64,000 bases of DNA, from the NCBI GenBank assembly GCA_000004985.1, contig GG738893.1, one strand, 5' to 3'. Below, one piece after another: positions 2,370 through 21,967 of this stretch. The position numbers were made by a program, and so were the translations under genes. Numbering within the stretch: position 1 is the first letter of the stretch; the number at the start of each line of letters is the position of its first letter. The notes beneath the pieces are model-generated. The model had not been told where the DNA came from. It made no database searches and saw only the letters and a list, made by a program, of their open reading frames with translations. The DNA is from Naegleria gruberi (taxonomy: Eukaryota).

Positions 2370-3711
2370 ATGTCTGCAATACAAGAGTCAATAGCTACCG
2401 CAAGAAAGGAAGCACAAGACCTTCACGAACAAATTAAAAACACTAGGAAGAAAACCAATGACTGTAGTAGTATGTATTCTAAAGTTTACTTTGGATTTTA
2501 ACAATTCACTAGTTCGGGATATGGATGTGAAAGAAGTTGCTCCATTAAAAATCAGAGAACGTAGAGTACTCAAAGGACACACAGCAAAGATATATAGTTT
2601 GGCATGGGCCAAGGATTCTACGCACTTGTTGAGTGCCAGTCAAGATGGTAAATTACTGGTAAGTAGAGGTTTTATTGATTTTCAGTTTATTGTTGTTGTT
2701 ATTGTTATTATTGTTGCAATATAATTAGATTTGGGATGCAGTGAAGAATTTAAAGGTTCACGCCATTCCATTGCGATCTCATTGGGTTATGTGTTGTGAT
2801 TATAGTCCGTCAGGTAATGCTGTTGCAGCTGGTGGTTTGGATAATATTTGCTCAATTTGTTAGTATTTTTGAATATTTGAACGTTGATCTAATTATTATT
2901 CTATTGCTATTTAATGACTGTTTTATTATTGCTGATAATGAATATTGATGATTGGATATTATGGATAATTTTGGATAATAATTATTATAATACTACTATA
3001 ATTATTGGATTTGTTAAACAAATAGATACAATTTCATCATTAACTCAAGCTCAAAGTATAAATGATATTAAACCACATAGAGAATTATCTGGACATTCTG
3101 GATATTTGAGTAGTTGTAAATTCTTGAATGATAGACACATTTTATCTAGCTCAGGAGATTCTACTTGTATATTGTGGGATACTGAGATGGGACATCCAAT
3201 CAGTCGTTTTGAGGAACATACTGGTGATTGTATGTCCATTTCAATTTCACCAACAGGAGAGAATAATTTATTTATCAGTGGAGCTTGTGACGGAAACTCA
3301 AAGTTGTGGGATATTCGTATGAATAAGTGTGTTGCCACATTCACTGGACATGAAGGTGATATCAATTCAGTTCAATTTTTCCCTAATGGAAATGCCTTTG
3401 CCACTGGTTCTGATGATTGTACTTGTAGATTGTTCGACCTTCGTGCTTCACGTGAGGTTATGACCTATTCAGATGATAATGTCAGAGAAGGTGTCACTAG
3501 TATTAGTTTCAGCAAATCTGGACGTGTTTTATTTGCTGCCTATGAGTACAAGAAAGTTATTGCTTGGGATACTTTGAAAGGTAAGCCACTCCAAGTACTT
3601 GAAGGTCTTCCAAATGGTCACGATAATCGTGTCAGTTGTTTGGCTGTTTCTCCTGATGGCCACTCACTTGCCACAGGTTCATGGGACATGACTCTCAAGA
3701 TTTTTGCTTAA
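2370..3711 (+). CDS. heterotrimeric G-protein beta subunit (WD40), paralog 1; four exons: join(2370..~2466, 2513..2658, 2729..2858, 3026..3711)
   Basis: The translation aligns along its whole length with metazoan and Dictyostelium G-beta. Landmarks are [99 protein letters not shown] and a C-terminal WDMTLKIFA. Introns are GT..AG (the first donor is ambiguous between 2464, 2467 and 2470). The codon TAT (Y) is split by intron 3 exactly as in paralog 2. The start has the A-run context aaaaaaattgttaacaactgccacctgtcATG. Confidence 0.85.
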
Positions 3712-4079: not shown

Positions 4080-6335
4080 ATGTCTTTTAATCCAAGAGGA
4101 AGCAACAAGGAGTACTCTTTCATGTCTACTACTGCTCCATCTGTAGATAGAAAGCTTCCATTCCTTCCAGGCTATACATTCGACGACAAATTCATTAAGG
4201 ATAGACATCATAAGGGACAATTATTAGCATACAAAAATAATATTCCTGTTGTACATGATTACGATGTCCCTGTTGAAGTGGATGAACTTCAAACAGAAAC
4301 CGAAAAGCTGGCTGAAATGCTCAAATCCACCACTCAACTTTATAAAACCTCTGTAACCAATAATGATACAACTAAAAAAGAAAATTGGTTGTCTTTGGAA
4401 AAGAAGGTCCTCAGATTCAATGCTTTTTTCAAGGAAGGTGTTCATGAAAGTGCTGTTGAACAAAGTAGGGTTAGAAAATGTGTAATTTTCTACTACCTCG
4501 AAGATGATACAATGCACATCAGTGAACCAAAGCAAGATAACTCTGGTATTCCTCAAGGTACTTTGGTCAAGAGACATCGTATTCCAAGAGATAGAGCTTC
4601 GGGAAGTTCAAATGTTTACTATACAATGGACGATCTTAACATTGGAAGAGAAGTTACAATTTACGGAAAGACATTCAGAATTGTTGATTGCGACTCTTTC
4701 ACAAGAGAATTCTATAATGGTATTGGTGTTGAAGTTCCAGAACCAGAGCTTTACCCTGGCGATCAATATACTGATTTGAGAGATACTATTAAAAAGTCAA
4801 TGAATCCTTACAAGTCCTTAAATCCAATGGACCAAGATCTTAAGAAGTATATGGAATATTCATTCAAGGGTATGCGTACCACACCATCAAAGCAAGAAAA
4901 AGTTGCTGTACAAAAATTCCTTGCATTTGATAGACAAGTATTGCGTTTCTTCTGTTACTGGGATGACTCTGAAAAGTTGTATGGTGATAAGAGATTCTTC
5001 ATTTTGGAATACTACCTTTCAGATGACACCATGATGATTACTGAAGTTTACCCAGCCAACTCTGGTTATGATCCATTCCCAGTCTTTTTGAAGAGACAAA
5101 AGGTTCCAAGAGTTAAAAGCTCTGCTGTTGAACCAACTACATGTTATGATGAAACAGATCTTGCTATTGGAAAGCGTGTTGTTGTTTTCTCAAAGAACTT
5201 TTTGCTCTATGATTGTGATGAATTCACCAGAGACTTCTTTGCCAGAAAGTATGGCATTACCAGCATGACTCCAATTGAGGTGAAGGATGCTCCAAAGCCT
5301 GAAATTCAATATCAAGAACCACCATATAATGGATTTGGTGATGAAGAAGATTCTTTGGGTTCTTGGAAATACTTGGTTATTAAACCACCAAAGAAGGATG
5401 TAAAGAAGTATATTGAAAATGATCACAAGCTCTTTAGATACTCTGCAGTTTTACTTACTGACTGTCCAGAAGACAAGGGAAGAAAATTCATTCTCTCCTA
5501 TTACCTTTCTGATGACACTATTTCAGTATTCGAACCTGTACAAAGAAACAGCGGTATTCTTGGAGGAAAATTCCTTCAAAGATCCAAGATTAAGAATGAC
5601 AATGGTGATTTTATTAAGGCCCATGACACCTTTATTGGATCTGTTTTGAACATCAACAGCTACTTATTCTACTTGCAAGAAACTGATGAATATACTGTAA
5701 ACTATATGGAACAAAATGCTTCACAATTCCCTAAGGCAAACATTGAAACTATTTTGAATAAGATTAGAAAGGAAGTGATAAACCTTCCAGACTATAAGCT
5801 TAGAGATGCATTAGCTGAAACTGAAGGTCCAGGAAAGGTCGGAATGATGTCTTTAAGATCATTCTTTGATAGTTTAGGTATTAACATTGTCGAGCATGAA
5901 ATTATTACAATTTTGAGACATTTCAATGCAAAGGAAGATGGTGCAATTTCATATTCTGAATTCTTGAGTGCAATTACATCAGCTCCAACCATTGAAAAGA
6001 AGCAACAATCAATTCAAAAAACCCAAAAGAAAGTTATTGATGAAGATGTTTTTAAGGTTGCTCTTAAAGTTTTCAAGGAAAAGATTGGCACTAGAAGACT
6101 TCTTGTCCATGACTCTTTCAAGATTATTGCTGACAAGAGTGTTGATGGCTTGATTGGAGAGGTTGAATTCAAGCGAGCAGTTCAAGATGGTCTCAAACTT
6201 TCCTTATCAGATGAACATATCGAATCTTTAATTGATCACTTCTTCCCAGAAACTAAGCGTAGATTAACTTTAATAGAATTTATGAAGATTATTGAAGGTA
6301 CATCTACATACCTTTATGCTAAGCAAAATAAATAA
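4080..6335 (+). CDS. EFHC1/Rib72-like ciliary microtubule-inner protein with three DM10 domains and a C-terminal EF-hand-like region
   Basis: Continuous 751-aa ORF. N-terminal LPFLPGYTFDDK, and three repeats of the DM10 signature: YYLEDDTMHISEPKQDNSGIPQG ... TIYGKTFRIVDCDSFT; LEYYLSDDTMMITEVYPANSGYDPF ... FLLYDCDEFTRDFF; LSYYLSDDTISVFEPVQRNSGILGGKFLQR. All match human EFHC1 closely. An EF-hand-like GAISYSEFLSAI lies near the C-terminus. Confidence 0.8.
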   Translation: MSFNPRGSNKEYSFMSTTAPSVDRKLPFLPGYTFDDKFIKDRHHKGQLLAYKNNIPVVHDYDVPVEVDELQTETEKLAEMLKSTTQLYKTSVTNNDTTKKENWLSLEKKVLRFNAFFKEGVHESAVEQSRVRKCVIFYYLEDDTMHISEPKQDNSGIPQGTLVKRHRIPRDRASGSSNVYYTMDDLNIGREVTIYGKTFRIVDCDSFTREFYNGIGVEVPEPELYPGDQYTDLRDTIKKSMNPYKSLNPMDQDLKKYMEYSFKGMRTTPSKQEKVAVQKFLAFDRQVLRFFCYWDDSEKLYGDKRFFILEYYLSDDTMMITEVYPANSGYDPFPVFLKRQKVPRVKSSAVEPTTCYDETDLAIGKRVVVFSKNFLLYDCDEFTRDFFARKYGITSMTPIEVKDAPKPEIQYQEPPYNGFGDEEDSLGSWKYLVIKPPKKDVKKYIENDHKLFRYSAVLLTDCPEDKGRKFILSYYLSDDTISVFEPVQRNSGILGGKFLQRSKIKNDNGDFIKAHDTFIGSVLNINSYLFYLQETDEYTVNYMEQNASQFPKANIETILNKIRKEVINLPDYKLRDALAETEGPGKVGMMSLRSFFDSLGINIVEHEIITILRHFNAKEDGAISYSEFLSAITSAPTIEKKQQSIQKTQKKVIDEDVFKVALKVFKEKIGTRRLLVHDSFKIIADKSVDGLIGEVEFKRAVQDGLKLSLSDEHIESLIDHFFPETKRRLTLIEFMKIIEGTSTYLYAKQNK

Positions 6336-6450
6336 AATACCTAAATTTCCAAACTAGTGAGTGCACTTTACTGAAATGTCGACCAGTTTGTTTTCTCTTA
6401 ACACAACAAAAAGGCCAGTAATTTGGTTGATCAAACTTTTTGTTATTCTG

Positions 6451-6500
6451 NNNNNNNNNNNNNNNNNNNNNNNNNNNNNNNNNNNNNNNNNNNNNNNNNN
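6451..6500. other. assembly gap (50 N)
   Basis: A run of N characters. Confidence 0.95.
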
Positions 6501-6614
6501 GTTCGACGTTGGTTTTAATACTTTTTTCCTCTATGCTTGTTGATGTGAGTTGGCTTCTTGTAAGTCCATAATCTAGAATGTAAGAGTATAAATCATATTT
6601 TGTAAAGGTATAGT

Positions 6615-7574
6615 TCATATCTTCTTTTTTGATTTCTCAAATAGTAGAGGCGAAATATAAAGTGAGTAGTCTTGAAGTAAAAATCCAATAAAATTAATTC
6701 CATTTCCAACAATCTCAATGCATTGAGGTAATTGATTATCGTTAAATAGTGACTTTTTCTTCTGAGTTTTAGGTTTTAATCCTAACAATAAATGAATATC
6801 CAATTTTGAGAAGTCCTGTTTTGACTTGAGAAATGAGAATGGTGTTTCTGGAACTTTGTTTTGAAATATCCAATCTCCTGCAAGTGTCTGAATAAATATA
6901 ATACCCGAGTCCAATGCTAATAACTTTGAAACTTTCTCCTTAACAGGTGATTTGTTTATAACAATTTCATGCTGTATTCTTTCAATACTATACAAATAAT
7001 TATTAGAAATACAATAGAATAATTTAAATCCAGCAAATACCTGTACAAATTGCTGTACCCTGAATTTTTCACTCTTTTCCTCATCCAAATAATCGACAAA
7101 ATAAATATTATGATTACTATCCATTTCAAAAGCAAACCTTCCATACGATGTAAAGAGAGTCGAAAATCCATTAAATGTGTGGACCTGAACCACATATTCA
7201 TCATCAATAAATCGATCCTCCTGTAGGAAATACGTAATAGGAGGTCGAATTGATGCTGATTCCCACTTTGATCGTTTCGGAGCCATCACTACCTTTGAAA
7301 AAACATCCACCTCTTCATAGATTGAATAGTAACAAGCTGATGGAATTAACTTTTCACTCATTGGGAGTGGTACTTTAATTTCAATACAATTCTCTACTAG
7401 TGGATGAACAAATTTCCTTGTATGTGGTCCAAACTCATCAAAAGGATCGGATCGAAAAGTTTCATCATGACATTGTATACTGGTAATTTTGTAAAATTTA
7501 TTACTTTCATGATTGGCATTGCCACCATCTTGATAAGGATAGGGAAATCTCTTCCCTTGATCATATTCATTCAT
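6615..7574 (-). CDS. hypothetical protein
   Basis: 319-aa ORF with a true ATG at 7572..7574 behind an A-run. No family recognised. Confidence 0.45.
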   Translation of the reverse strand: MNEYDQGKRFPYPYQDGGNANHESNKFYKITSIQCHDETFRSDPFDEFGPHTRKFVHPLVENCIEIKVPLPMSEKLIPSACYYSIYEEVDVFSKVVMAPKRSKWESASIRPPITYFLQEDRFIDDEYVVQVHTFNGFSTLFTSYGRFAFEMDSNHNIYFVDYLDEEKSEKFRVQQFVQVFAGFKLFYCISNNYLYSIERIQHEIVINKSPVKEKVSKLLALDSGIIFIQTLAGDWIFQNKVPETPFSFLKSKQDFSKLDIHLLLGLKPKTQKKKSLFNDNQLPQCIEIVGNGINFIGFLLQDYSLYISPLLFEKSKKKI

Positions 7575-7696
7575 TTTTTTGTATTATTGTAACAATTTAA
7601 TTATATTTAATTAAAATATATAATTAAATAATTAAAAATTACATTTTAGGCTTTTCAATTTCCAAGTTCTATTTTTACAAAAGTAATCAAAAAAAA

Positions 7697-9124
7697 ATGT
7701 CTTTGCATGATGATCATTGGGAGGAAATAATTCCTAACAATAATAACAATACTCATGATGATAAGAATGAAGGTTGGAATTCAATTCCTGACGAATTGTG
7801 GATTGAAATATTTTCGTTTCATTGTGATTCGTTCCGATCAGTGTTGATCGATATTCCATCTATATCTCGGAGGTTTTGCGATTTGATTTCTCCACCCAAG
7901 TTGGATCATTTGATGATGGCTTTTCAAAAGTGTCATGAACAACATCAGGATTTGAAGAATTCTTCTTCCTCTTCGGATGAAAGTAGTAATGGTAATGCTC
8001 CAACAGAGAAAGTTAGTGGTTGGAGAAAGTTTTTCAGTTTTGTAAAGAAGAAATCAAGTAATAATACTGTAAATGATGAGAAGAATGTTGATTTGGTTTC
8101 TCCTCCAATGGAAAATGTAAATTCTAACGAGGATGAAGTTCAGGAAATGATTAAGCAATTAGAAAAAGATTTTAAAGAAATGAGTTTGGAATGTGTAAAT
8201 ACGGGTGGTGATTTATTGTACAAAAGATTATTGGAATTACAAGAACTGATCGATTTTAAAGAGCTTGTTTTGAAACATGGCTCGTTCAGGTCGGCTTTTG
8301 TACAATCTGTCATTGACGGTATAAAATTGAATCCAGAGAAGTGTTTCAGAAGAGAAATGATCTATCACGCTTCACATATTTTTAAAACTGAAGAAGATTA
8401 TCATTCATTTATTAGTAGCCACGAAGGAGAAATAGAGATGCAGAAGCACCAATCAGAAAGTTGTGGAACAACCATATTGATGACCGATGATTACTCTAGC
8501 TCAAGTGCTGGTATCAATTTAATTTCAAATCCAATATTTTATGATACTGGCGTTAAATTTTACGAGTTTAGAGTGCACAAAAGTGGAAGATATGATAATT
8601 ATCTTATTGGTCTGTGCCTCACTGAGGTATTGGAATTGGATAGCATGTTAAAGAAGACATATGAGCAAACTGACAATTTATCTTCTAGATTTTTACTGGA
8701 AGAAGGGAAAACTTACGACCTCAAATATTATGATTATTTTGGTTCCTCTAATTCAATCGGTTGGGCCTATTATAATGAAGGATTGTCTGTTTACTTTAAT
8801 GGGGGATCTAATTATTCGGCACCCTCCTTCAGTTCCAAACTCTCATATCCATGCGACTATAAAGGTTGTGAGTATGTTTTGGGAATTTATTTAGATACTA
8901 AGAATATGAGATTAGTATTTGCAAAGAATGGAGCATTAAGTACTCATGGATATGATTTAAATGCATACTTTACAAAGCATCCAAAATTTATGCAAAAAAA
9001 GCTTGCTCTTTATCCATGTCTTTCTATGGGACACAAATTTGATGCTGTAACATTTGAGACACGAATTCCTCTGGCAACTATGGTCACCATTAGGAATTTG
9101 GTTAAATCAGTGAAATTCAATTAA
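7697..9124 (+). CDS. F-box / SPRY (B30.2) domain protein
   Basis: The N-terminus has an F-box-like IPDELWIEIFSFHCDSFRSVLIDIPSISRRFCDL. The C-terminus has a SPRY-like core (IGWAYYNEGLSVYFNGG ... VLGIYLDTKNMRLVFAKNG). ATG follows an A-run. Confidence 0.6.
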   Translation: MSLHDDHWEEIIPNNNNNTHDDKNEGWNSIPDELWIEIFSFHCDSFRSVLIDIPSISRRFCDLISPPKLDHLMMAFQKCHEQHQDLKNSSSSSDESSNGNAPTEKVSGWRKFFSFVKKKSSNNTVNDEKNVDLVSPPMENVNSNEDEVQEMIKQLEKDFKEMSLECVNTGGDLLYKRLLELQELIDFKELVLKHGSFRSAFVQSVIDGIKLNPEKCFRREMIYHASHIFKTEEDYHSFISSHEGEIEMQKHQSESCGTTILMTDDYSSSSAGINLISNPIFYDTGVKFYEFRVHKSGRYDNYLIGLCLTEVLELDSMLKKTYEQTDNLSSRFLLEEGKTYDLKYYDYFGSSNSIGWAYYNEGLSVYFNGGSNYSAPSFSSKLSYPCDYKGCEYVLGIYLDTKNMRLVFAKNGALSTHGYDLNAYFTKHPKFMQKKLALYPCLSMGHKFDAVTFETRIPLATMVTIRNLVKSVKFN

Positions 9125-9225
9125 GAGTCTTTCCAACCATTTGTAAATTATTTCATTCTAAAGTTAAATAGACATTGAGCCTTTTTGAAACTGTTTTTCT
9201 TCTTAAACGATGCTATCTTCAGTGA

Positions 9226-9457
9226 TGTCAAATACAAGATGTAGTCAAGGATCAAAGTTTGCAACAAACTCTTGATGGATTGGTTGCTGACTTTTCTTAT
9301 CTCCTCAGTGAGGAAGATATCTTTATTGATAATACTATTCACAAAGCTGCTATCAAGGTTGATGAAAGCAGGTGCCGAAGCTAGTGCTGCCACTGCAATT
9401 GAATTTTTAACTTTGAATCAAATTTCATTCCAAATCTATTCAGTTCTCTGTTGGTAA
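9226..9457 (+). pseudogene. serpin C-terminal fragment (s5A-breach and RCL hinge region), frameshifted and truncated
   Basis: Frame 1 (9226..9381) reads QTLDGLVADFSYLLSEEDIFIDNTIHKAAIKVDE then a stop. After a +1 shift, frame 2 (9371..9454) continues GAEASAATAIEF. Joined, these give the canonical serpin motif HKA-x-I-x-V-DE-A-G-A-E-A-S-A-A-T-A (hinge consensus EEGTEAAAATA). The fragment is wedged in the 427-bp spacer between two convergent genes, far too short for a ~380-aa serpin. Confidence 0.45.
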
Positions 9458-9550
9458 GGTGAACAAGTTGTAATTTAAATAAACCACTTTTTGTAAAAAA
9501 TATTATAAAGCCGTTTCTACCAAAATGAATTCTGAATGTTAATAATTTAT

Positions 9551-11168
9551 TTAGAGTTTTGAAGGTCTATTACTACCCAAGGCATCTGTCACTTCACGAA
9601 CGACTCTTTCAGCACTGACAATAGCACCTTCCATATAACCAATCCATGCTGTAGCTGTTTCAGTACCAGCAATAAACAATTTACGATTATACAATGGTTC
9701 TCTGTAGGCCATCTTGGTCATAGTCAAAGTACCTGGAGCAGTGATAGCACCATAACTTCCTCTAGTGTAAGGATCCATACCCCAATCCTTTTCAATATAA
9801 TCTACAAATTGTGATTTCCACTCTTCGACTGTACCACCAAGAGTTTCACTGTATTGTTTCATTAACAAGGCAACCTTCTTTTCCTTTGAGAATGTACTCC
9901 ATTCACAAGCTCTAGTGGCATAAACGAAACCACAAATACCAAAAATGAGATCATTCTTGTAACCAATATCATAAGTAAGAGTATGCCAATCTTCATCTTG
10001 GAGTGACAAAATGAAACCATTACTATTGTACTTGGTTCTCCAGAATGGTTGTTTAAATATTGTAAAGCACTTTACAGCATAACCCATAGGTGTTCTTTGA
10101 CAGAATTGATGTCTTTGAGATGGAACTGGTGGTTCGTATTGAATACCAAGGTGAGTCCATGGCAAATTAGTGGCAATAACCTTTTTGGCTTGGAAAACCT
10201 TTCCATTTTCACAAGTAACAGACATGGTTTCACCTTCATCCTTAATTTTAGTCACTGGATGCTTCAATAATACATTGAGCTTGTACTTGTCAACGAGTCC
10301 AGTAACAATACCATTAGTACCAAGGTAAACTTTGGCATCTTGGGCAGCATCTCTGACATTCATCAAATTATCAAAACTTCCAGCAGCAGCAATATACCAC
10401 AACATGAATAAAGTTGAAACTTCAGATGGATCAACAGCAAGAACAGTAATAACAAAGGTTCTGAAAAAGTCCTTAGCAACTTCAGTCTTGAACATTGAAT
10501 CCATAAAGGTTTGAACAGATTGTGAGTCATATTCCAAAGCCTTAGCACATTCACATGGTGCATCAACTGGAACAGTGTTAGCCATTTCTTCAATCTTCAT
10601 GATAGAACGTTGGAAATCCAACAAGACTTCTTCAGTAACATTCTTTGGATCAGATGGAATGCTTCCTGTATATTTGAGAATATTCTTCTTACCACCAATA
10701 CTTGGCATGACAAGGGATGAATTTCTATTTTCTTGTTCAAAGTATTGAGGAACCAATGACAAGTTAAGTTCCTTAATAAGAGACAAAACCTATTAAAATA
10801 GTTGCAATGAAATTGATAGATTAATTGATCATGATCAAAAATTCCTTACCTTTGGTTGAGGTGGTCCAACCCATTGTCCTATATTTTAATTCATCACATT
10901 GTGATCATCAAATATACATTTTAAATAATATATTATTTAAAAAACACAAACCTCCGATATCAATAACAACCTTTCCATTCAACAGGCTTTGAGAACGCAA
11001 TCTTCCTCCAATATAATCATTAGCCTCCAAAATTAAAACATTGGTAATATTATTTTGTTTCAACAACTTGGCAGCATTAACTCCGGCCATACCAGCACCA
11101 ATAACAATAACATCATACATTTTGCCTCCACAACATGGTGAAGATTCAACACAACTATTTTGAAGCAT
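9551..11168 (-). CDS. flavin-containing amine oxidase (monoamine-oxidase family); three exons: complement(join(9551..10789, 10850..10878, 10952..11168)); C-terminal SKL
   Basis: Exon 1 carries the FAD-binding N-terminus MYDVIVIGAGMAGVNAAKLL ... ILEANDYIGGRL. A 29-nt micro-exon encodes (G)QWVGPPQPK. Exon 3 runs VLSLIKELNL ... GTETATAWIGYMEGAIVSAERVVREV and ends in SKL (a PTS1-like tripeptide). The stretch GG-QWVGP-PQPK-VLSLIKELNL mirrors human MAO [21 protein letters not shown], which validates the micro-exon. Donors are GTTTGT and GTAAGG; acceptors are TAG. Confidence 0.8.
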
Positions 11169-11401: not shown

Positions 11402-13632
11402 TCAATAATTAAATATCAATGAAATGCAAATAGTGAGAAGGAGTGTTACAATTAATGAACAGTCCAATTTAAAAGATGATGAAACTCTTGTGGAATTTCT
11501 AGCAGAAACAGTTGGCTGAATGGCAGAGTTGGAGGCAGTTGGTACAACTACATTGGATGGAGTATATTTCAATAAACCAATGTCATTGAATGGAATTTTG
11601 GTAAAGTATTCATTCTCGTATGGGTTTCCTTCAATGAGTGTGAAATTTAAGGCACTTGGGTTGGCAAACCATTTCATTGGAACATTCATGGTATTGTTGG
11701 AGACAGTTGACTTGGCATAAACCATTGATGCAATATTCAATGAAGTTGTTCCACTCATTAAATTGAAAACTACCTTATTTCCTTTTGGAGCATGAGGGTC
11801 ATCATTGAGAATATTAACAAGAGATGGATAGGCAGAAGCCCAAGGCTCGGTTTGATAAGGCATATTTTGGAGATTCTTCATGAGTTGTACTGAATTATTT
11901 GGTGCATTATATCCTCTGTTATCAACATGAATACTAATGGTATTGTTAATGAAAATATTGTTTCTTACACCATTATCTCTACCACCACCAACAAGAATAG
12001 CTCTGTAACATTCCAAAAGTACGTTTCCGTAAACATCAGCAGATGAATATTGATCATCAAGGTAAATACATGAAGTACCAAGTTGACCAGGTCCACGAAT
12101 GTGGTGAATGAAATTGTACTTGATGACATTTCCTCTCATAGTCCAATCTCTATTCGAAACATTAGAAATGAATATGAACAACTTTAAACATACCTTCCAC
12201 TATAAATGGCTCCAGCATCTCCTGTTTGAGTGCAAACATTGTAAATTTCATTGTAAGATAATTCATGGTTATTACCACTGTGCAAGATGGCTACATGCGA
12301 AGCTGTATGCAATACATTGTGCATTACCTTAACACCACATCCACTCAATGAAACTGCGCCTCTATAGGTCTTACCAATTCTTGAAAAATTGAAAATAGTA
12401 TTGTTCATTACAATGAGATCAGTATTGGTGAGTGTAATTCTTGAACCACCAGAAACTGAAACACCTCCTTGACCCAATTCATACATGGTATTGCTTGTAA
12501 CCTTACAACCAGTCAAACAATTACCAATAGCAAGGCCAACATTACCAGTATTGGAGATAGTACAACTATTCACAATCAAATAATTATAATTTGATGCCTT
12601 GATTGCGGTTCCTCTACACATTCCCAAATTGAGATTATGGAATTGATGAGCATGGGCATTGACTGTGAAAATCTGATCAGTTACTGAAAGAACCAAATCA
12701 TCATCATTTTCCAGAGGTCCAGGTGGATACAAATAAACCATGTCATCTAAAATAATGTATTCTCCAGCTTGATCGAGCTCACTCAAGAAATTCAATAAGA
12801 AAAATCTTTGACCACCCACAATACCATAAGTAATTGAGGATTGTTTTAAAGTGACAACACCTTCTGGAGTGACACTTTGTAAATCTTCAGTGCCATCTGC
12901 CCAATCGTATGCCCAATATCCAAAACCGAAAGGATACTTTTCATTTGGCCATCTATTTCTATTGGTTGCATTAGTAGCATCGAATGTGAAATTATTGACA
13001 CCTGGCTTGGCTCCAATCTTTAAGAAATTATCATCGAGTGTATCAGGAGAAATATTTGGATAACGAGCCAACGTCAAAACCTTTCCTCTATAGAAAAGTT
13101 CATTTTGTGAATCAGTTGAACCAATATATTGACCATTTCTTTTGAGTTTTGAAATTTGAGTTTGTGAAAAACCGACAGCTGTCAAATTCAATTGCAAAAC
13201 CTTTCCTTGTGAGCTTGTTGGAATCATATTAAAGGCCCAATTATTATTCTGAGATGTTACAACTGACCACAAGCTAGCTGGGAGTGGAACACCACCAACC
13301 ACTTTGACACTCTTGCCAGAATTTAAAGGTTTCCAAATGACAGGTGAAGTATTATCATTATACTTGCTAGGACTAGCTAAGGTAATTGATGAATTAATGA
13401 AATAGGACCCTTCTTCAATTAAAATGTTATAGGTTTGATTGGTGAGAGCTGAATTCTTCATGGACACAACTGTGGCTGCTGCTTTAGACAAAGTTTTGAA
13501 TGGAGAGTTGGTTGAGTTACCAAAGTTTGTATCGAGACCTTGACTGTCCGAAACGTAGATGTTAACTTGGCCTTTTAACACAGATAGAATGGTTAGCAAC
13601 AAAACGAAACAAACTAGTGTTGAATATTTCAT
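11402..13632 (-). CDS. secreted right-handed parallel beta-helix (pectin-lyase-fold-like) protein; two exons: complement(join(11402..12149, 12194..13632))
   Basis: Signal peptide MKYSTLVCFVLLLTILSVLKG. Many NxS/T sequons. The repeated G/N/S/T-rich rungs (NTGNVGLAIGNCLTGCKVTSNTMYELGQGGVSVSGGSRITLTNTDLIVMNNTIFN ...) are typical of beta-helix repeats. The C-terminus is hydrophobic (LIVTLLLTICISLIFNY). A 44-nt GTATGT..TAG intron rejoins the two ORFs in frame (…AIYSGR|DWTMRGNV…). Confidence 0.6.
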
Positions 13633-13991
13633 TTTTTTGTGTGATGATTTTTGATTGACACGATTTGTAACATTGATTAGAAATGATTCGGCCGTTTGTG
13701 AACTGTCATTTGCCTCATTATTTGCCCTTGTATTGTTTAAAAGAATATGCATCAATTATTATATGGACTAATCTTACATTTCATATTTGGTTTAGTTTCA
13801 TTATTGAACTTTAGTTTTCAGAGAAATCTTTGTATCTATAGATAGAATATCATATAAAAACCAAGTATTTTCAACAATTCCTTTTTCCTTACTTGAAATC
13901 GAACGTAATTTCAACAATTTTGTAATATTTTCCAATTTTGGCGCTGAAATTTCAATTCAAAAAATTAAAAAAAAATTAAAAAACTCTTTTC

Positions 13992-19016: not shown

Positions 19017-19066
19017 NNNNNNNNNNNNNNNNNNNNNNNNNNNNNNNNNNNNNNNNNNNNNNNNNN
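19017..19066. other. assembly gap (50 N)
   Basis: A run of N characters between the two duplication units. Confidence 0.95.
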
Positions 19067-20720: not shown

Positions 20721-21845
20721 ATGGAAGAACATCAATCTCTTGTAATTGACAATGGTTCTGGAATGTGTAAAGCTGGTTTCGCTGGCGAAGATGCTCCACG
20801 TGCTGTTTTTCCTTCATTGATTGGTAGACCAAAACAAAGGTCAATTATGGTTGGAATGGGAAATAAGGATGCCTATGTTGGAGATGAAGCCATGTCAAAG
20901 AAGGGAATCCTCGCTCTCAAATATCCAATTGAGCACGGAATTATCACTAACTGGGATGATATGGAAAAGATTTGGCATCATACTTTCTATAATGAATTGA
21001 GAGTTGGTCCTGAAGAGCATGGTGTCTTATTAACTGAAGCTCCATTGAATCCAAAGGCAAATCGTGAAAAGATGACACAAATCATGTTCGAAACCTTTAG
21101 AGTTCCAGCCATGTATGTGGCCATTCAAGCTGTCTTGTCCTTGTATGCTTCTGGTAGAACTACAGGTATTGTTTTGGATTCAGGTGATGGTGTTTCACAT
21201 ACTGTTCCTATCTATGAGGGTTATGCTTTACCACATGCCATTTTAAGATTGGATTTGGCTGGTCGTGATTTAACTGACTACTTGATGAAGATCTTGATGG
21301 AACGTGGATACAGTTTCAACACCAGTGCTGAACGTGAAATTGTCAGAGATATTAAGGAAAAGCTTTGTTATGTTGCCTTTGACTTTGAAACTGAAATTAA
21401 GAAAGCATCTTAAAGTTCATCCATTGATACTTCATATGAATTACCAGATGGTAATATTATCACAGTTGGAAATGAACGATTCAGATGTCCAGAAGTGTTA
21501 TTCCAACCTAATTTCATTGGAATGGAAGCTGCTGGTGTACACGAAACAACTTTCAATTCTATTGGAAAGTGTGATATTGACATTAGAAAGGATTTATATG
21601 CCAATGTTGTACTTTCAGGTGGTACAACCATGTTTGAAGGAATTGCTGAGAGAATGAACAAGGAATTGACAGCTATGGCTCCAGCCTCAATGAAGATTCG
21701 TGTTGTTGCTCCACCAGAAAGAAAGTATTCAGTTTGGATTGGTGGTAGTATTCTCTCTTCATTATCAACCTTTCAATCTATGTGGATCACAGCAGAGGAG
21801 TATGAAGATGCTGGATGTGCCATCGTTCATAGAAAGTGTTTCTAA
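20721..21845 (+). CDS. actin (conventional, about 88% identical to animal actin), with one in-frame TAA at 21411..21413
   Basis: [37 protein letters not shown] ... IVHRKCF is collinear with actin over 375 codons in a single frame. Codon 231 is TAA, where yeast actin has Gln (EMQTAAQSSS) and this gene reads EIKKAS*SSS. It ends with a normal TAA. Confidence 0.8.
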
Positions 21846-21967
21846 ACCAAGTTGACCCAAATCTATCATATATATTGTAAATAATCAAATTAAATTATCC
21901 TTATTATCCTTAACAATAGCCAGTCCAAATGAACATTTAACAATAAATTAGAGCATTAAGGTAAAAA

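What the first reader, a model, noticed from the sequence alone, without database searches (positions are those of the whole stretch)
9150..9460. Relic serpin pseudogene wedged between two convergent genes
The 427-bp spacer between the F-box/SPRY gene and the amine-oxidase gene encodes, over two frames joined by a 1-nt insertion, …LVADFSYLLSEEDIFIDNTIHKAAIKVDE-A-GAEASAATAIEF…. This is the serpin s5A/hinge/reactive-centre-loop consensus (HKA…EV.E.GTEAAAATA). Only about 75 codons survive, the ORF has stops on both sides, and a full serpin would need ~1.1 kb. So this is the stranded C-terminal remnant of a serpin gene, presumably left by a deletion or rearrangement that brought the two flanking genes together. 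Serpin pseudogene relics in a genome this compact suggest recent gene loss. A functional serpin paralog may exist elsewhere.
Basis: partly seen in the sequence, partly recalled or inferred. Interest (0 to 1): 0.5.

Follow-up and report, generated by a model that had tools for sequence, protein, structure and literature searches.

The report
Dead serpin gene fragment in Naegleria
A roughly 230-base stretch between two genes of the amoeba Naegleria gruberi is a real but broken leftover of a serpin (protease-inhibitor) gene: an ordinary gene relic, mainly useful for annotation and as a hint of serpin gene loss.

Summary
The window is Naegleria gruberi. In the 426-bp spacer between a + strand SPRY-like gene (7697-9124) and a − strand amine-oxidase gene (9551-11168), the + strand reads CQIQ…HKAAIKVDE (9226-9366). 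One extra A follows (9367), then AGAEASAATAIEF… (9368-9457). Joined, the 76 residues hit Pfam Serpin PF00079 at 35.3 bits (cut-off 27, E 9.8e-9, profile 277-331 of 370). They also match 152 solved serpin chains; the three shown residue by residue align at the homologous segment. Shuffled and reversed controls give nothing.

The fragment cannot make a serpin. About 15% of the domain remains, there is no in-frame ATG, and there is a frameshift in the hinge. The upstream flank shows no serpin signal and the downstream flank none on its own.

No intact serpin lies in the window. No close relative was found in any database reachable here. In N. fowleri the DM10 and amine-oxidase genes are directly convergent, 121 bp apart. 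The relic therefore sits in a ~3.2-kb block seen only in N. gruberi.

The pseudogene reading is supported. Whether the fragment decayed in place or arrived already broken is unresolved. This is an ordinary kind of feature and of low interest.

The parts
9223..9225 (+). TGA stop that closes the relic's reading frame on the 5' side. This is the practical 5' edge of recognisable serpin similarity.
   Evidence: Adding the upstream sequence in frame 1 or frame 2 extends the Pfam alignment by at most 3 profile positions. The other + frames of 7900-9228 give no serpin hit.
9226..9366 (+). Relic piece 1 (frame 1, 47 codons): CQIQDVVKDQSLQQTLDGLVADFSYLLSEEDIFIDNTIHKAAIKVDE. It corresponds to the serpin segment that ends in strand s5A and the P17 Glu.
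   Evidence: Alone it scores PF00079 18.4 bits, E 0.0013, profile 276-320. It aligns to residues ~288-330 of solved serpins, with the ADFS…HKA.I.V.E motif. It contains no Met codon (read directly from the sequence).
9367..9367 (+). One extra A in the run GAAA (9364-9367). This is a +1 frameshift between P17 Glu and P16.
   Evidence: Removing it restores the spacing E-x-G-x-E-A-x-A-A-T and raises the Pfam score from 18.4 to 35.3 bits. Whether it is a true mutation or a homopolymer miscall in the assembly was not testable here.
9368..9457 (+). Relic piece 2 (frame 2, 29 codons plus TAA): AGAEASAATAIEFLTLNQISFQIYSVLCW*. It holds the hinge (P16-P8), the reactive-centre loop and possibly strand s1C (ISFQI, 9422-9436).
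   Evidence: It adds about 17 bits when joined to piece 1. It aligns to E-G-[ST]-EA[AS]AATA of solved serpins. The Pfam alignment ends at profile 331-335.
9435..9473 (+). Possible third piece (frame 0): SIQFSVGKVNKL plus TAA at 9471-9473. It may be the last strand (s5B) and the native stop codon of the serpin, reached after an internal deletion of about 65 nt. Suggestive only.
   Evidence: On an artificial bridge (the alpha-1-antitrypsin s4B segment typed in from memory) this tail adds 7.2 bits and carries the alignment to profile 368 of 370. Three shuffled tails add 0.5-0.7 bits, the frame-2 tail 1.1 and the alpha-1-antitrypsin tail 22.9. Alone, or joined directly, it adds nothing significant.
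9125..9222 (.). 5' part of the spacer with no detectable serpin similarity. It is presumably the 3' untranslated region of the upstream gene plus the breakpoint.
   Evidence: GC is 0.30 over 9125-9225.
9474..9550 (.). 3' part of the spacer with no serpin similarity. It is presumably the 3' untranslated region of the convergent amine-oxidase gene.
   Evidence: GC is 0.23 over 9458-9550.
7697..9124 (+). Upstream neighbour on the same strand: a 475-aa N. gruberi 'predicted protein', weakly SPRY-like. No homologue was found outside N. gruberi.
   Evidence: One search found only itself at E <= 0.001 among 5.8 billion proteins. One search gives SPRY at 16.8 bits, below the cut-off.
9551..11168 (-). 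Convergent neighbour: a flavin amine oxidase in two exons (9551-10786 and about 10908-11168) with one intron.
   Evidence: One search gives PF01593 at 113.7 bits, with NAD_binding_8 in the upstream exon. Orthologues are 74% identical in N. fowleri and 57% in Willaertia magna.
6336..9550 (.). The ~3.2-kb interval between the DM10 gene and the amine-oxidase gene. It holds a 50-N assembly gap (6451-6500), a 319-aa ORF with no family match on the − strand, the SPRY-like gene and the relic. N. fowleri has no counterpart.
   Evidence: In N. fowleri (L001) the DM10 orthologue (78% identity) and the amine-oxidase orthologue are convergent and 121 bp apart. The gap is shown.

Best explanation
The segment 9226-9457 (possibly to 9473) is a non-functional remnant of a serpin gene in the Naegleria gruberi genome.

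Shown: it is homologous to the serpin segment from just before strand s5A through the hinge and reactive-centre loop. It covers only about 55 of the 370 profile positions. It has no start codon and carries a +1 frameshift inside the hinge. It is bounded by sequence with no independently detectable serpin similarity. It cannot encode an inhibitor and does nothing as a serpin. Today it is spacer or 3'-UTR DNA between two convergent genes.

Inferred, about even odds: a complete serpin gene once lay here on the + strand, convergent with the amine-oxidase gene. It was destroyed in place. A deletion or rearrangement removed about 830 bp of 5' coding sequence, perhaps the same event that placed the N. 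gruberi-specific SPRY-like gene next to it. A smaller internal deletion and the frameshift followed.

The stop-free frames and the sharp edges suggest that the breaks are deletion or junction points rather than slow point-mutation decay. They also suggest that the disabling was recent compared with neutral saturation.
For: - Serpin homology: PF00079 at 35.3 bits, above the cut-off of 27, E 9.8e-9. 152 solved-chain matches, the 60 listed all serpins; the three alignments shown are collinear with residues ~280-345. Shuffled and reversed controls are negative.
- Hinge, read directly: E-A-G-A-E-A-S-A-A-T.
- Disablement: only profile 277-331 is covered. There is no Met codon in the 76 codons. There is a frameshift at 9367. 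TGA lies at 9223-9225 and TAA at 9455-9457.
- Flanks: no serpin signal in any + frame of 7900-9228 or, on its own, in 9403-9550.
- Not randomised: the probability of 76 stop-free codons at this composition is 0.003. The relic keeps 33-35 bits against 50-65 bits for the same segment of three intact serpins.
- Native-like composition: third-position GC is 0.23-0.26, against 0.25-0.31 for neighbouring genes.
- Not a recent copy of a gene on record: no shared-word candidate scored among 5.8 billion proteins, which include N. gruberi. There is no true hit at E <= 0.001 among 1.84 billion representatives.
- For decay in place: a frame-0 tail, SIQFSVGKVNKL*, behaves like the serpin C-terminus and would put a native stop 77 bp from the convergent gene's stop. 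It adds 7.2 bits against 0.6 for shuffles.
Against: - No parent gene, paralogue or orthologue was found, so nothing shows directly that a whole serpin ever stood at this locus.
- N. fowleri, a metagenomic Naegleria-like contig (L003) and Willaertia have no serpin next to their amine-oxidase orthologues.
- Decay in place needs at least three events: a 5' truncation, an internal deletion and a frameshift. A captured fragment needs one or two.
- The C-terminal tail match is weak. It was picked by eye among about 100 possible frame and position choices and gives no hit on its own.
- The 47-aa and 76-aa queries have little power to find paralogues below about 50% identity.
- A 50-N scaffold gap at 6451-6500 leaves part of the interval unseen.
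Confidence: 0.6

Rival explanations
1. Dead-on-arrival fragment. A ~200-250-bp piece of a serpin gene or cDNA was copied into this spacer. This could have happened by partial duplication, by capture as filler DNA during double-strand-break repair, or as a passenger of the rearrangement that delivered the N. gruberi-specific block (319-aa ORF plus SPRY-like gene). On this reading no complete serpin ever stood here.
For: - Both edges are sharp and the interior is little decayed. A single capture event explains that.
- The whole 6336-9550 interval is absent from the N. fowleri orthologous site, where DM10 and amine oxidase are 121 bp apart. This shows that DNA has been gained or lost here as a block.
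Against: - No donor was found. There is no other copy in the window and no protein above about 50% identity in collections that include N. gruberi proteins.
- A recently captured, little-decayed fragment should still have a near-identical donor, unless that donor was lost or is missing from the assembly.
- No flanking direct repeats beyond chance level and no poly(A) tract.
- The possible native C-terminus and stop in frame 0 fit a resident gene slightly better.
Confidence: 0.25
2. Foreign fragment. The piece comes from a bacterial, viral or prey serpin gene taken up by this bacterivorous amoeba and integrated as a fragment.
For: - Several bacterial serpins are among the better PDB matches, namely miropin and thermopin (named from my own knowledge of these entries).
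- No eukaryotic relative was identified.
- The surrounding block is lineage-specific and its genes have no homologues elsewhere.
Against: - Scans of 185,579 prokaryotic species genomes, of IMG/VR viral contigs and of JGI metagenomes found no relative.
- Third-position GC of 0.23-0.26 matches the host's genes.
- With 76 residues, the ranking of PDB hits carries no phylogenetic weight.
Confidence: 0.06
3. Still-coding sequence. The frameshift is an assembly error in an A-run, and the segment is an exon. It could be spliced onto the upstream SPRY-like gene, or belong to a serpin gene whose other exons lie elsewhere or in the scaffold gap.
For: - The frames are stop-free over 47 plus 29 codons.
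- The extra base sits in a homopolymer.
- AG dinucleotides after a pyrimidine run exist at 9220-9222 and 9241-9243.
- A 50-N gap lies at 6451-6500.
Against: - Even when corrected, the reading lacks about 85% of the serpin fold, including all of sheet A strands 1-3 and the helices.
- The s4B motif is missing.
- A 47-76-residue serpin tail on a SPRY protein has no known function.
- The other + frames upstream and the sequence on both sides of the gap show no serpin signal.
- A 2.5-kb intron holding two genes would be out of keeping with Naegleria introns, which are short (my own knowledge).
- There is no convincing donor site before the stop at 9122-9124.
Confidence: 0.04
4. Chance resemblance of AT-rich intergenic DNA to the serpin hinge.
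For: - The uncorrected pieces are individually below Pfam's cut-off.
- A frameshift had to be assumed.
- The Ala/Ser-rich hinge is of low complexity.
Against: - The joined score is above the curated cut-off.
- The three PDB alignments shown are collinear at the homologous position, and all 60 listed matches are serpins.
- Seven composition-matched controls were negative.
- After a generous multiple-testing correction the expectation is about 2.5e-3.
- Stop-free frames have probability 0.003.
Confidence: 0.03

Closest known systems
Serpin superfamily (Pfam PF00079, MEROPS inhibitor family I4)
   Same: The segment carries the ADFS…HKA.I.V.E strand s5A region. It also carries the hinge E-x-G-x-E-A-x-A-A-T that inserts into sheet A in inhibitory serpins. 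The order and spacing are correct once one base is removed.
   Different: - Only about 55 of 370 profile positions are present.
- There is no start codon.
- There is a frameshift in the hinge.
- The s4B motif is absent.
- No sheet A/B core or helices are present.

It is derived from the family but is not a member in the sense of a folded, functional protein.
Gene relics and truncated unitary pseudogenes in compact eukaryotic genomes, for example the 'gene relics' described in Saccharomyces cerevisiae intergenic regions (Lafontaine et al. 2004, cited from my own knowledge and not checked here)
   Same: It is a short, disabled stretch of recognisable coding similarity lying in an intergenic spacer. 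It is detectable only by frame-tolerant translation. No intact copy is nearby.
   Different: No parent or orthologue has been identified here. It therefore cannot yet be classed as unitary (a lost gene) or as a duplicated fragment.
Solved serpins with the best sequence match: 9j91_A ('Serine protease inhibitor 1 serpin'), 5hgc_A, mouse SERPINA3N (1yxa_A), conserpin (5cdx_A)
   Same: About 40-50% identity over the 43-62 aligned residues around s5A and the hinge.
   Different: These are complete proteins of 340-400 residues. The similarity is confined to the most conserved serpin segment and says nothing about which clade the relic came from.

Membership tests
Serpin (PF00079 / MEROPS I4) | Sequence match to the family profile above the curated gathering score | tested here: met
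   The frameshift-corrected peptide scores 35.3 bits against a cut-off of 27, E 9.8e-9. Uncorrected, the best single frame scores 18.4 bits, below the cut-off. Shuffled and reversed controls give no hit.
Serpin (PF00079 / MEROPS I4) | Hinge and reactive-centre-loop motif: P17 Glu, P15 Gly, small residues at P12-P9, Thr at P8 | tested here: met
   Read directly after removing base 9367: E-A-G-A-E-A-S-A-A-T-A. It aligns to E-G-[ST]-EA[AS]AATA of solved serpins.
Serpin (PF00079 / MEROPS I4) | Complete serpin domain of ~350-400 residues (sheets A, B and C, helices A-I) | tested here: not met
   Only profile positions 277-331 of 370 are matched. No serpin similarity appears in the upstream spacer or in the other + frames of 7900-9228. 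The space available is 426 bp, against about 1.1 kb needed.
Serpin (PF00079 / MEROPS I4) | C-terminal strands s4B and s5B (PF.F.I … F.G+V..P) | tested here: inconclusive
   No s4B motif appears in any frame. A frame-0 tail, SIQFSVGKVNKL*, adds 7.2 bits on an artificial bridge, against 0.5-0.7 for shuffles and 22.9 for the alpha-1-antitrypsin tail. It gives no hit alone.
Serpin (PF00079 / MEROPS I4) | Translatable open reading frame with a start codon | tested here: not met
   There is no ATG in the relic's frames between TGA at 9223-9225 and TAA at 9455-9457. There is a +1 frameshift at 9367.
Serpin (PF00079 / MEROPS I4) | Protease inhibition by loop insertion | not testable with these tools
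   This needs biochemistry. It is also structurally impossible for a fragment of about 56-76 residues that lacks sheet A.
Pseudogene / gene relic | Recognisable homology to a protein-coding family, plus disabling lesions | tested here: met
   Homology. Lesions (truncation at both ends, frameshift, no start codon).
Pseudogene / gene relic | An identified functional parent (paralogue) or orthologue | tested here: inconclusive
   None was found in the window or in the protein collections. Metagenome, viral and prokaryotic scans found none. There is also none next to the amine-oxidase orthologues of N. fowleri, Willaertia and L003. A whole-genome profile search of N. gruberi could not be run.
Pseudogene / gene relic | No expression or selective constraint as coding sequence | not testable with these tools
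   No transcript data and no second allele or orthologue were available. Exact-sequence look-ups of the spacer ORFs found no other contig.
Processed (retrotransposed) pseudogene | 3' poly(A) tract and flanking target-site duplications | tested here: not met
   The longest A-run after the relic is 6 nt. Only chance-level short repeats flank it.
Horizontally acquired fragment | A close relative in prokaryotes or viruses, and foreign composition | tested here: not met
   No relative in the genome contigs, viral contigs or metagenome-contig scans. Third-position GC is 0.23-0.26, like the neighbouring host genes at 0.25-0.31. The scans only reach close relatives.

The most novel reading that the evidence does not exclude
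The relic is the last trace of a serpin gene that N. gruberi, or the Naegleria lineage, has otherwise lost. It would then document the presence and lineage-specific loss of serpins in Heterolobosea. The open-access literature I could search says nothing about serpins in Naegleria. A variant of this reading is that the fragment is retained because it now serves as 3'-UTR or terminator sequence for the two convergent genes.
Probability: 0.15. Interest if true: 0.35.

Novelty: new member of a known kind. Interest (0 to 1): 0.18.

Why it matters
The practical value is small but real.

- **Annotation.** The spacer should be marked as a serpin pseudogene fragment. It should not be called as a small ORF or merged into the neighbouring gene.
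- **Genome dynamics.** The DM10/amine-oxidase interval has gained or lost about 3 kb since the split between N. gruberi and N. fowleri.
- **A follow-up question.** It raises the checkable question of whether Naegleria still has any intact serpin. If it has none, the relic would be evidence that this inhibitor family was lost in the lineage.

No new mechanism or new kind of element is involved.

Tried and rejected
1. **Close relatives of the relic.**
   - The word-indexed search of 5.8 billion proteins found one candidate and none scored.
   - The full HMMER scan of 1.84 billion representatives used the in-frame 47 aa. Its only hit, P0031, is a 653-aa tandem-repeat artefact with no BLASTP alignment to the relic.
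   - Scans of metagenome, viral and prokaryotic contigs matched patterns, but none was confirmed.
2. **Other copies in the window.** blastn and tblastn found only the relic itself.
3. **Extending the similarity.**
   - Upstream frames extend the alignment by at most 3 profile positions.
   - The other + frames of 7900-9228, which overlap the SPRY-like gene, give nothing.
   - The sequence beside the scaffold gap and the 3' spacer give nothing.
4. **Exact-sequence look-ups.** I tried neighbouring proteins and spacer ORFs, hoping to find other strains or transcripts. None is on record.
5. **Mobile-element or viral origin of the block.** No terminal repeats exceed chance. The 319-aa ORF has no viral relative. 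A 19-nt imperfect direct repeat (6588-6606 and 9479-9497, 84%) brackets the block, but it is no better than a dozen other chance pairs in the same 3.5 kb.
6. **Literature on Naegleria or heterolobosean serpins.** The hits mention serpins only for other organisms.
7. **Synteny outgroups.** Willaertia (L002) and a metagenomic Naegleria-like contig (L003) carry unrelated genes downstream of amine oxidase. They cannot say whether the block was gained or lost.

Full report
**1. What is in the sequence**

The window has 33% G+C. It is densely packed with long ORFs on both strands, and a few of them are split by short introns. The 475-aa ORF at 7697-9124 is 100% identical to an NCBI 'predicted protein [Naegleria gruberi]', so the window comes from that heterolobosean amoeba.

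That gene ends on the + strand with TAA at 9122-9124. The flavin amine-oxidase gene lies on the − strand with its stop at 9551-9553 (PF01593, 113.7 bits). The spacer between them is 426 bp.

| Coordinates | Feature |
|---|---|
| 9223-9225 | TGA stop |
| 9226-9366 | 47 codons in frame 1: CQIQDVVKDQSLQQTLDGLVADFSYLLSEEDIFIDNTIHKAAIKVDE |
| 9367 | one extra A, in the run GAAA at 9364-9367 |
| 9368-9454 | 29 codons in frame 2: AGAEASAATAIEFLTLNQISFQIYSVLCW |
| 9455-9457 | TAA stop |

**2. Is it more than chance?**

- The joined 76-aa peptide hits Pfam Serpin (PF00079) at 35.3 bits, above the curated cut-off of 27. The E-value is 9.8e-9 and the match covers profile positions 277-331 of 370.
- The frame-1 piece alone reaches 18.4 bits and the frame-2 piece alone reaches nothing. 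Correcting one base therefore adds about 17 bits. That gain is the hinge, E-A-G-A-E-A-S-A-A-T.
- phmmer against PDB sequences returns 152 matches at E <= 1. The 60 listed are all serpins. The three shown residue by residue align at their residues ~280-345 (best E 1.4e-6).
- Six shuffles and the reversed peptide give no Pfam hit even at E <= 10.
- I allowed for about 1,700 peptide windows in the six frames and about 150 ways of placing a frameshift. The expectation then stays near 2.5e-3.
- At the window's composition, 76 random codons would be stop-free with probability 0.003.

**3. How much of a serpin is left?**

Very little remains, about 55 of 370 profile positions.

- Adding the upstream spacer in frame 1 or 2 extends the alignment by at most three positions.
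- The other two + frames of 7900-9228, which overlap the neighbouring gene, give no serpin signal.
- The three frames of 9403-9550, and the sequence on both sides of the scaffold gap at 6451-6500, also give none.
- There is no ATG anywhere in the relic's frames.
- The same segment cut out of three intact serpins scores 50-65 bits, against 33-35 for the relic. The core is recognisable but somewhat eroded, or was divergent to begin with.

In frame 0, overlapping the end of piece 2, the sequence reads SIQFSVGKVNKL followed by TAA (9435-9473). This resembles the last serpin strand and C-terminus (…F.GKV..P).

| Tail added to the bridge | Bits added |
|---|---|
| Frame-0 tail SIQFSVGKVNKL | +7.2, alignment reaches profile 368 of 370 |
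| Three shuffled tails | +0.5 to +0.7 |
| Frame-2 tail | +1.1 |
| Alpha-1-antitrypsin tail | +22.9 |

Alone, or joined directly, the tail adds nothing. It was also picked by eye among about a hundred alternatives. I treat it as suggestive only.

If the tail is real, the relic keeps the native stop codon 77 bp from the amine-oxidase stop. It would then have suffered an internal deletion of about 65 nt in addition to the frameshift and the 5' truncation.

**4. Surroundings and comparison with relatives**

The amine-oxidase protein has orthologues in N. fowleri (74% identity) and Willaertia magna (57%). It also has a relative on a metagenomic Naegleria-like contig (71%).

In N. fowleri (L001) the gene order is G-beta-like WD40, DM10/EF-hand protein, amine oxidase. 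The last two are convergent and only 121 bp apart.

The window holds the same three genes in the same relative orientation. These are WD40 at 2914-3711, DM10 at 4080-6335 (78% identical to the N. fowleri gene) and amine oxidase at 9551-11168. In N. gruberi, however, about 3.2 kb lie between DM10 and amine oxidase. That interval contains:

- a 50-N assembly gap at 6451-6500;
- a 319-aa ORF with no family match, on the − strand;
- the SPRY-like gene, which has no homologue outside N. gruberi and only a sub-threshold SPRY hit with no F-box hit;
- the serpin relic.

The relic therefore belongs to an interval that was either gained in the N. gruberi lineage or lost in the N. fowleri lineage. Willaertia and the metagenomic contig carry unrelated genes downstream of amine oxidase and cannot decide between the two. 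None of these loci has a serpin gene within 10 kb.

**5. Search for a parent or an intact paralogue**

- There is no other copy in the window at DNA or protein level.
- None of the 30 ORFs of 200 aa or more in the window is a serpin.
- The word-indexed search of 5.8 billion proteins found nothing.
- The exhaustive HMMER search of 1.84 billion representatives with the 47-aa in-frame piece gave one hit. It is a tandem-repeat artefact.
- Scans of metagenome, viral and prokaryotic contigs found no relative.

N. gruberi proteins are in these collections. A paralogue more than roughly 50% identical over this most conserved serpin segment is therefore unlikely among annotated genes. More distant serpins in the genome cannot be excluded, because I could not run a profile search on the whole genome. 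The open-access literature I could search does not discuss serpins in Naegleria.

**6. Explanation**

*Shown.* The segment is derived from a serpin gene and cannot encode a functional serpin. It does nothing as an inhibitor and is now spacer or 3'-UTR DNA between two convergent genes.

*Inferred.* The interior is far from randomised, with stop-free frames and one indel in about 230 bp. The flanks have no independently detectable similarity. The edges are therefore most likely breakpoints, not the result of slow point-mutation decay.

Two origins fit that picture.

- **Truncation in place (preferred, about even odds).** A resident serpin gene, convergent with amine oxidase, was truncated where it stood. 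No donor is needed. The composition is native-like, with third-position GC of 0.23-0.26 against 0.25-0.31 for the neighbours. The possible native C-terminus and stop also fit.
- **Captured or partially duplicated fragment (about one in four).** This needs fewer events, but it requires a donor that I could not find.

A foreign origin, a still-coding exon and chance are each unlikely, for the reasons given under the rival explanations.

**7. Comparison with what is known, and novelty**

The fragment matches the serpin family on the profile and on the hinge motif. It fails the tests for a complete domain, an open reading frame and the s4B motif. It is serpin-derived, not a serpin.

As a kind of feature it is a truncated pseudogene or gene relic. 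That kind is well known from other compact eukaryotic genomes.

It is a new instance of a known kind and is not surprising to a specialist. Its modest value lies in annotation, in showing turnover of the DM10/amine-oxidase interval, and in prompting a check of whether Naegleria retains any serpin. Interest is low, at 0.18.

Noticed in passing
window 20721-21860 (+): An actin gene carries an in-frame TAA at 21411-21413, reading …[37 protein letters not shown]… The same frame then continues as good actin sequence to …HRKCF*. The ORF before the stop hits Pfam Actin positions 2-250 of 410. It is either a second pseudogene in this window (a nonsense mutation) or a base error in the assembly.
   Followed up: partly
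window 6451-6500 and 19017-19066: There are two runs of 50 N, which are scaffold gaps. The first lies inside the DM10/amine-oxidase interval that holds the relic. The true size and content of that interval are therefore not fully known.
   Followed up: partly
window 2914-43944 versus L001 (N. fowleri VFQX01000002.1): Six genes are shared between the window and a 22-kb stretch of N. fowleri, but they are reordered. These are G-beta-like WD40, DM10, amine oxidase, PI4-kinase, CSN1/RPN7-like and WDR11. The WD40-DM10-amine-oxidase block is inverted relative to PI4K. In N. gruberi the genes are interspersed with many ORFs that have no Pfam match.
   Followed up: partly
window 6588-6606 and 9479-9497: An imperfect 19-nt direct repeat (ATAAATCATATTTTGTAAA and ATAAACCACTTTTTGTAAA, 84%) brackets the N. 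gruberi-specific block almost exactly. Both copies lie in 3' intergenic DNA. It could be a shared 3'-end signal or a target duplication. It is no stronger than about a dozen other chance pairs in the same 3.5 kb.
   Followed up: no
L005 (ENA ERZ929261, contig k127_493287, 1350 bp): An environmental metagenome contig encodes an amine-oxidase exon identical to the window's. N. gruberi, or a near-identical strain, is therefore present in that sample. The contig ends 31 bp past the stop, so it does not reach the relic.
   Followed up: partly
window 6615-7574 (−) and 7697-9124 (+): The two genes sharing the block with the relic look lineage-specific. The 319-aa ORF has no Pfam family and no viral relative. 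The 475-aa protein has no homologue other than itself among 5.8 billion proteins, and only a sub-threshold SPRY match.
   Followed up: partly
window 11402-12181 and 12184-13755 (−): Two long ORFs (259 and 523 aa) abut within a few bases in different frames and have no Pfam match. They may be one gene split by a short intron or by a frameshift.
   Followed up: no
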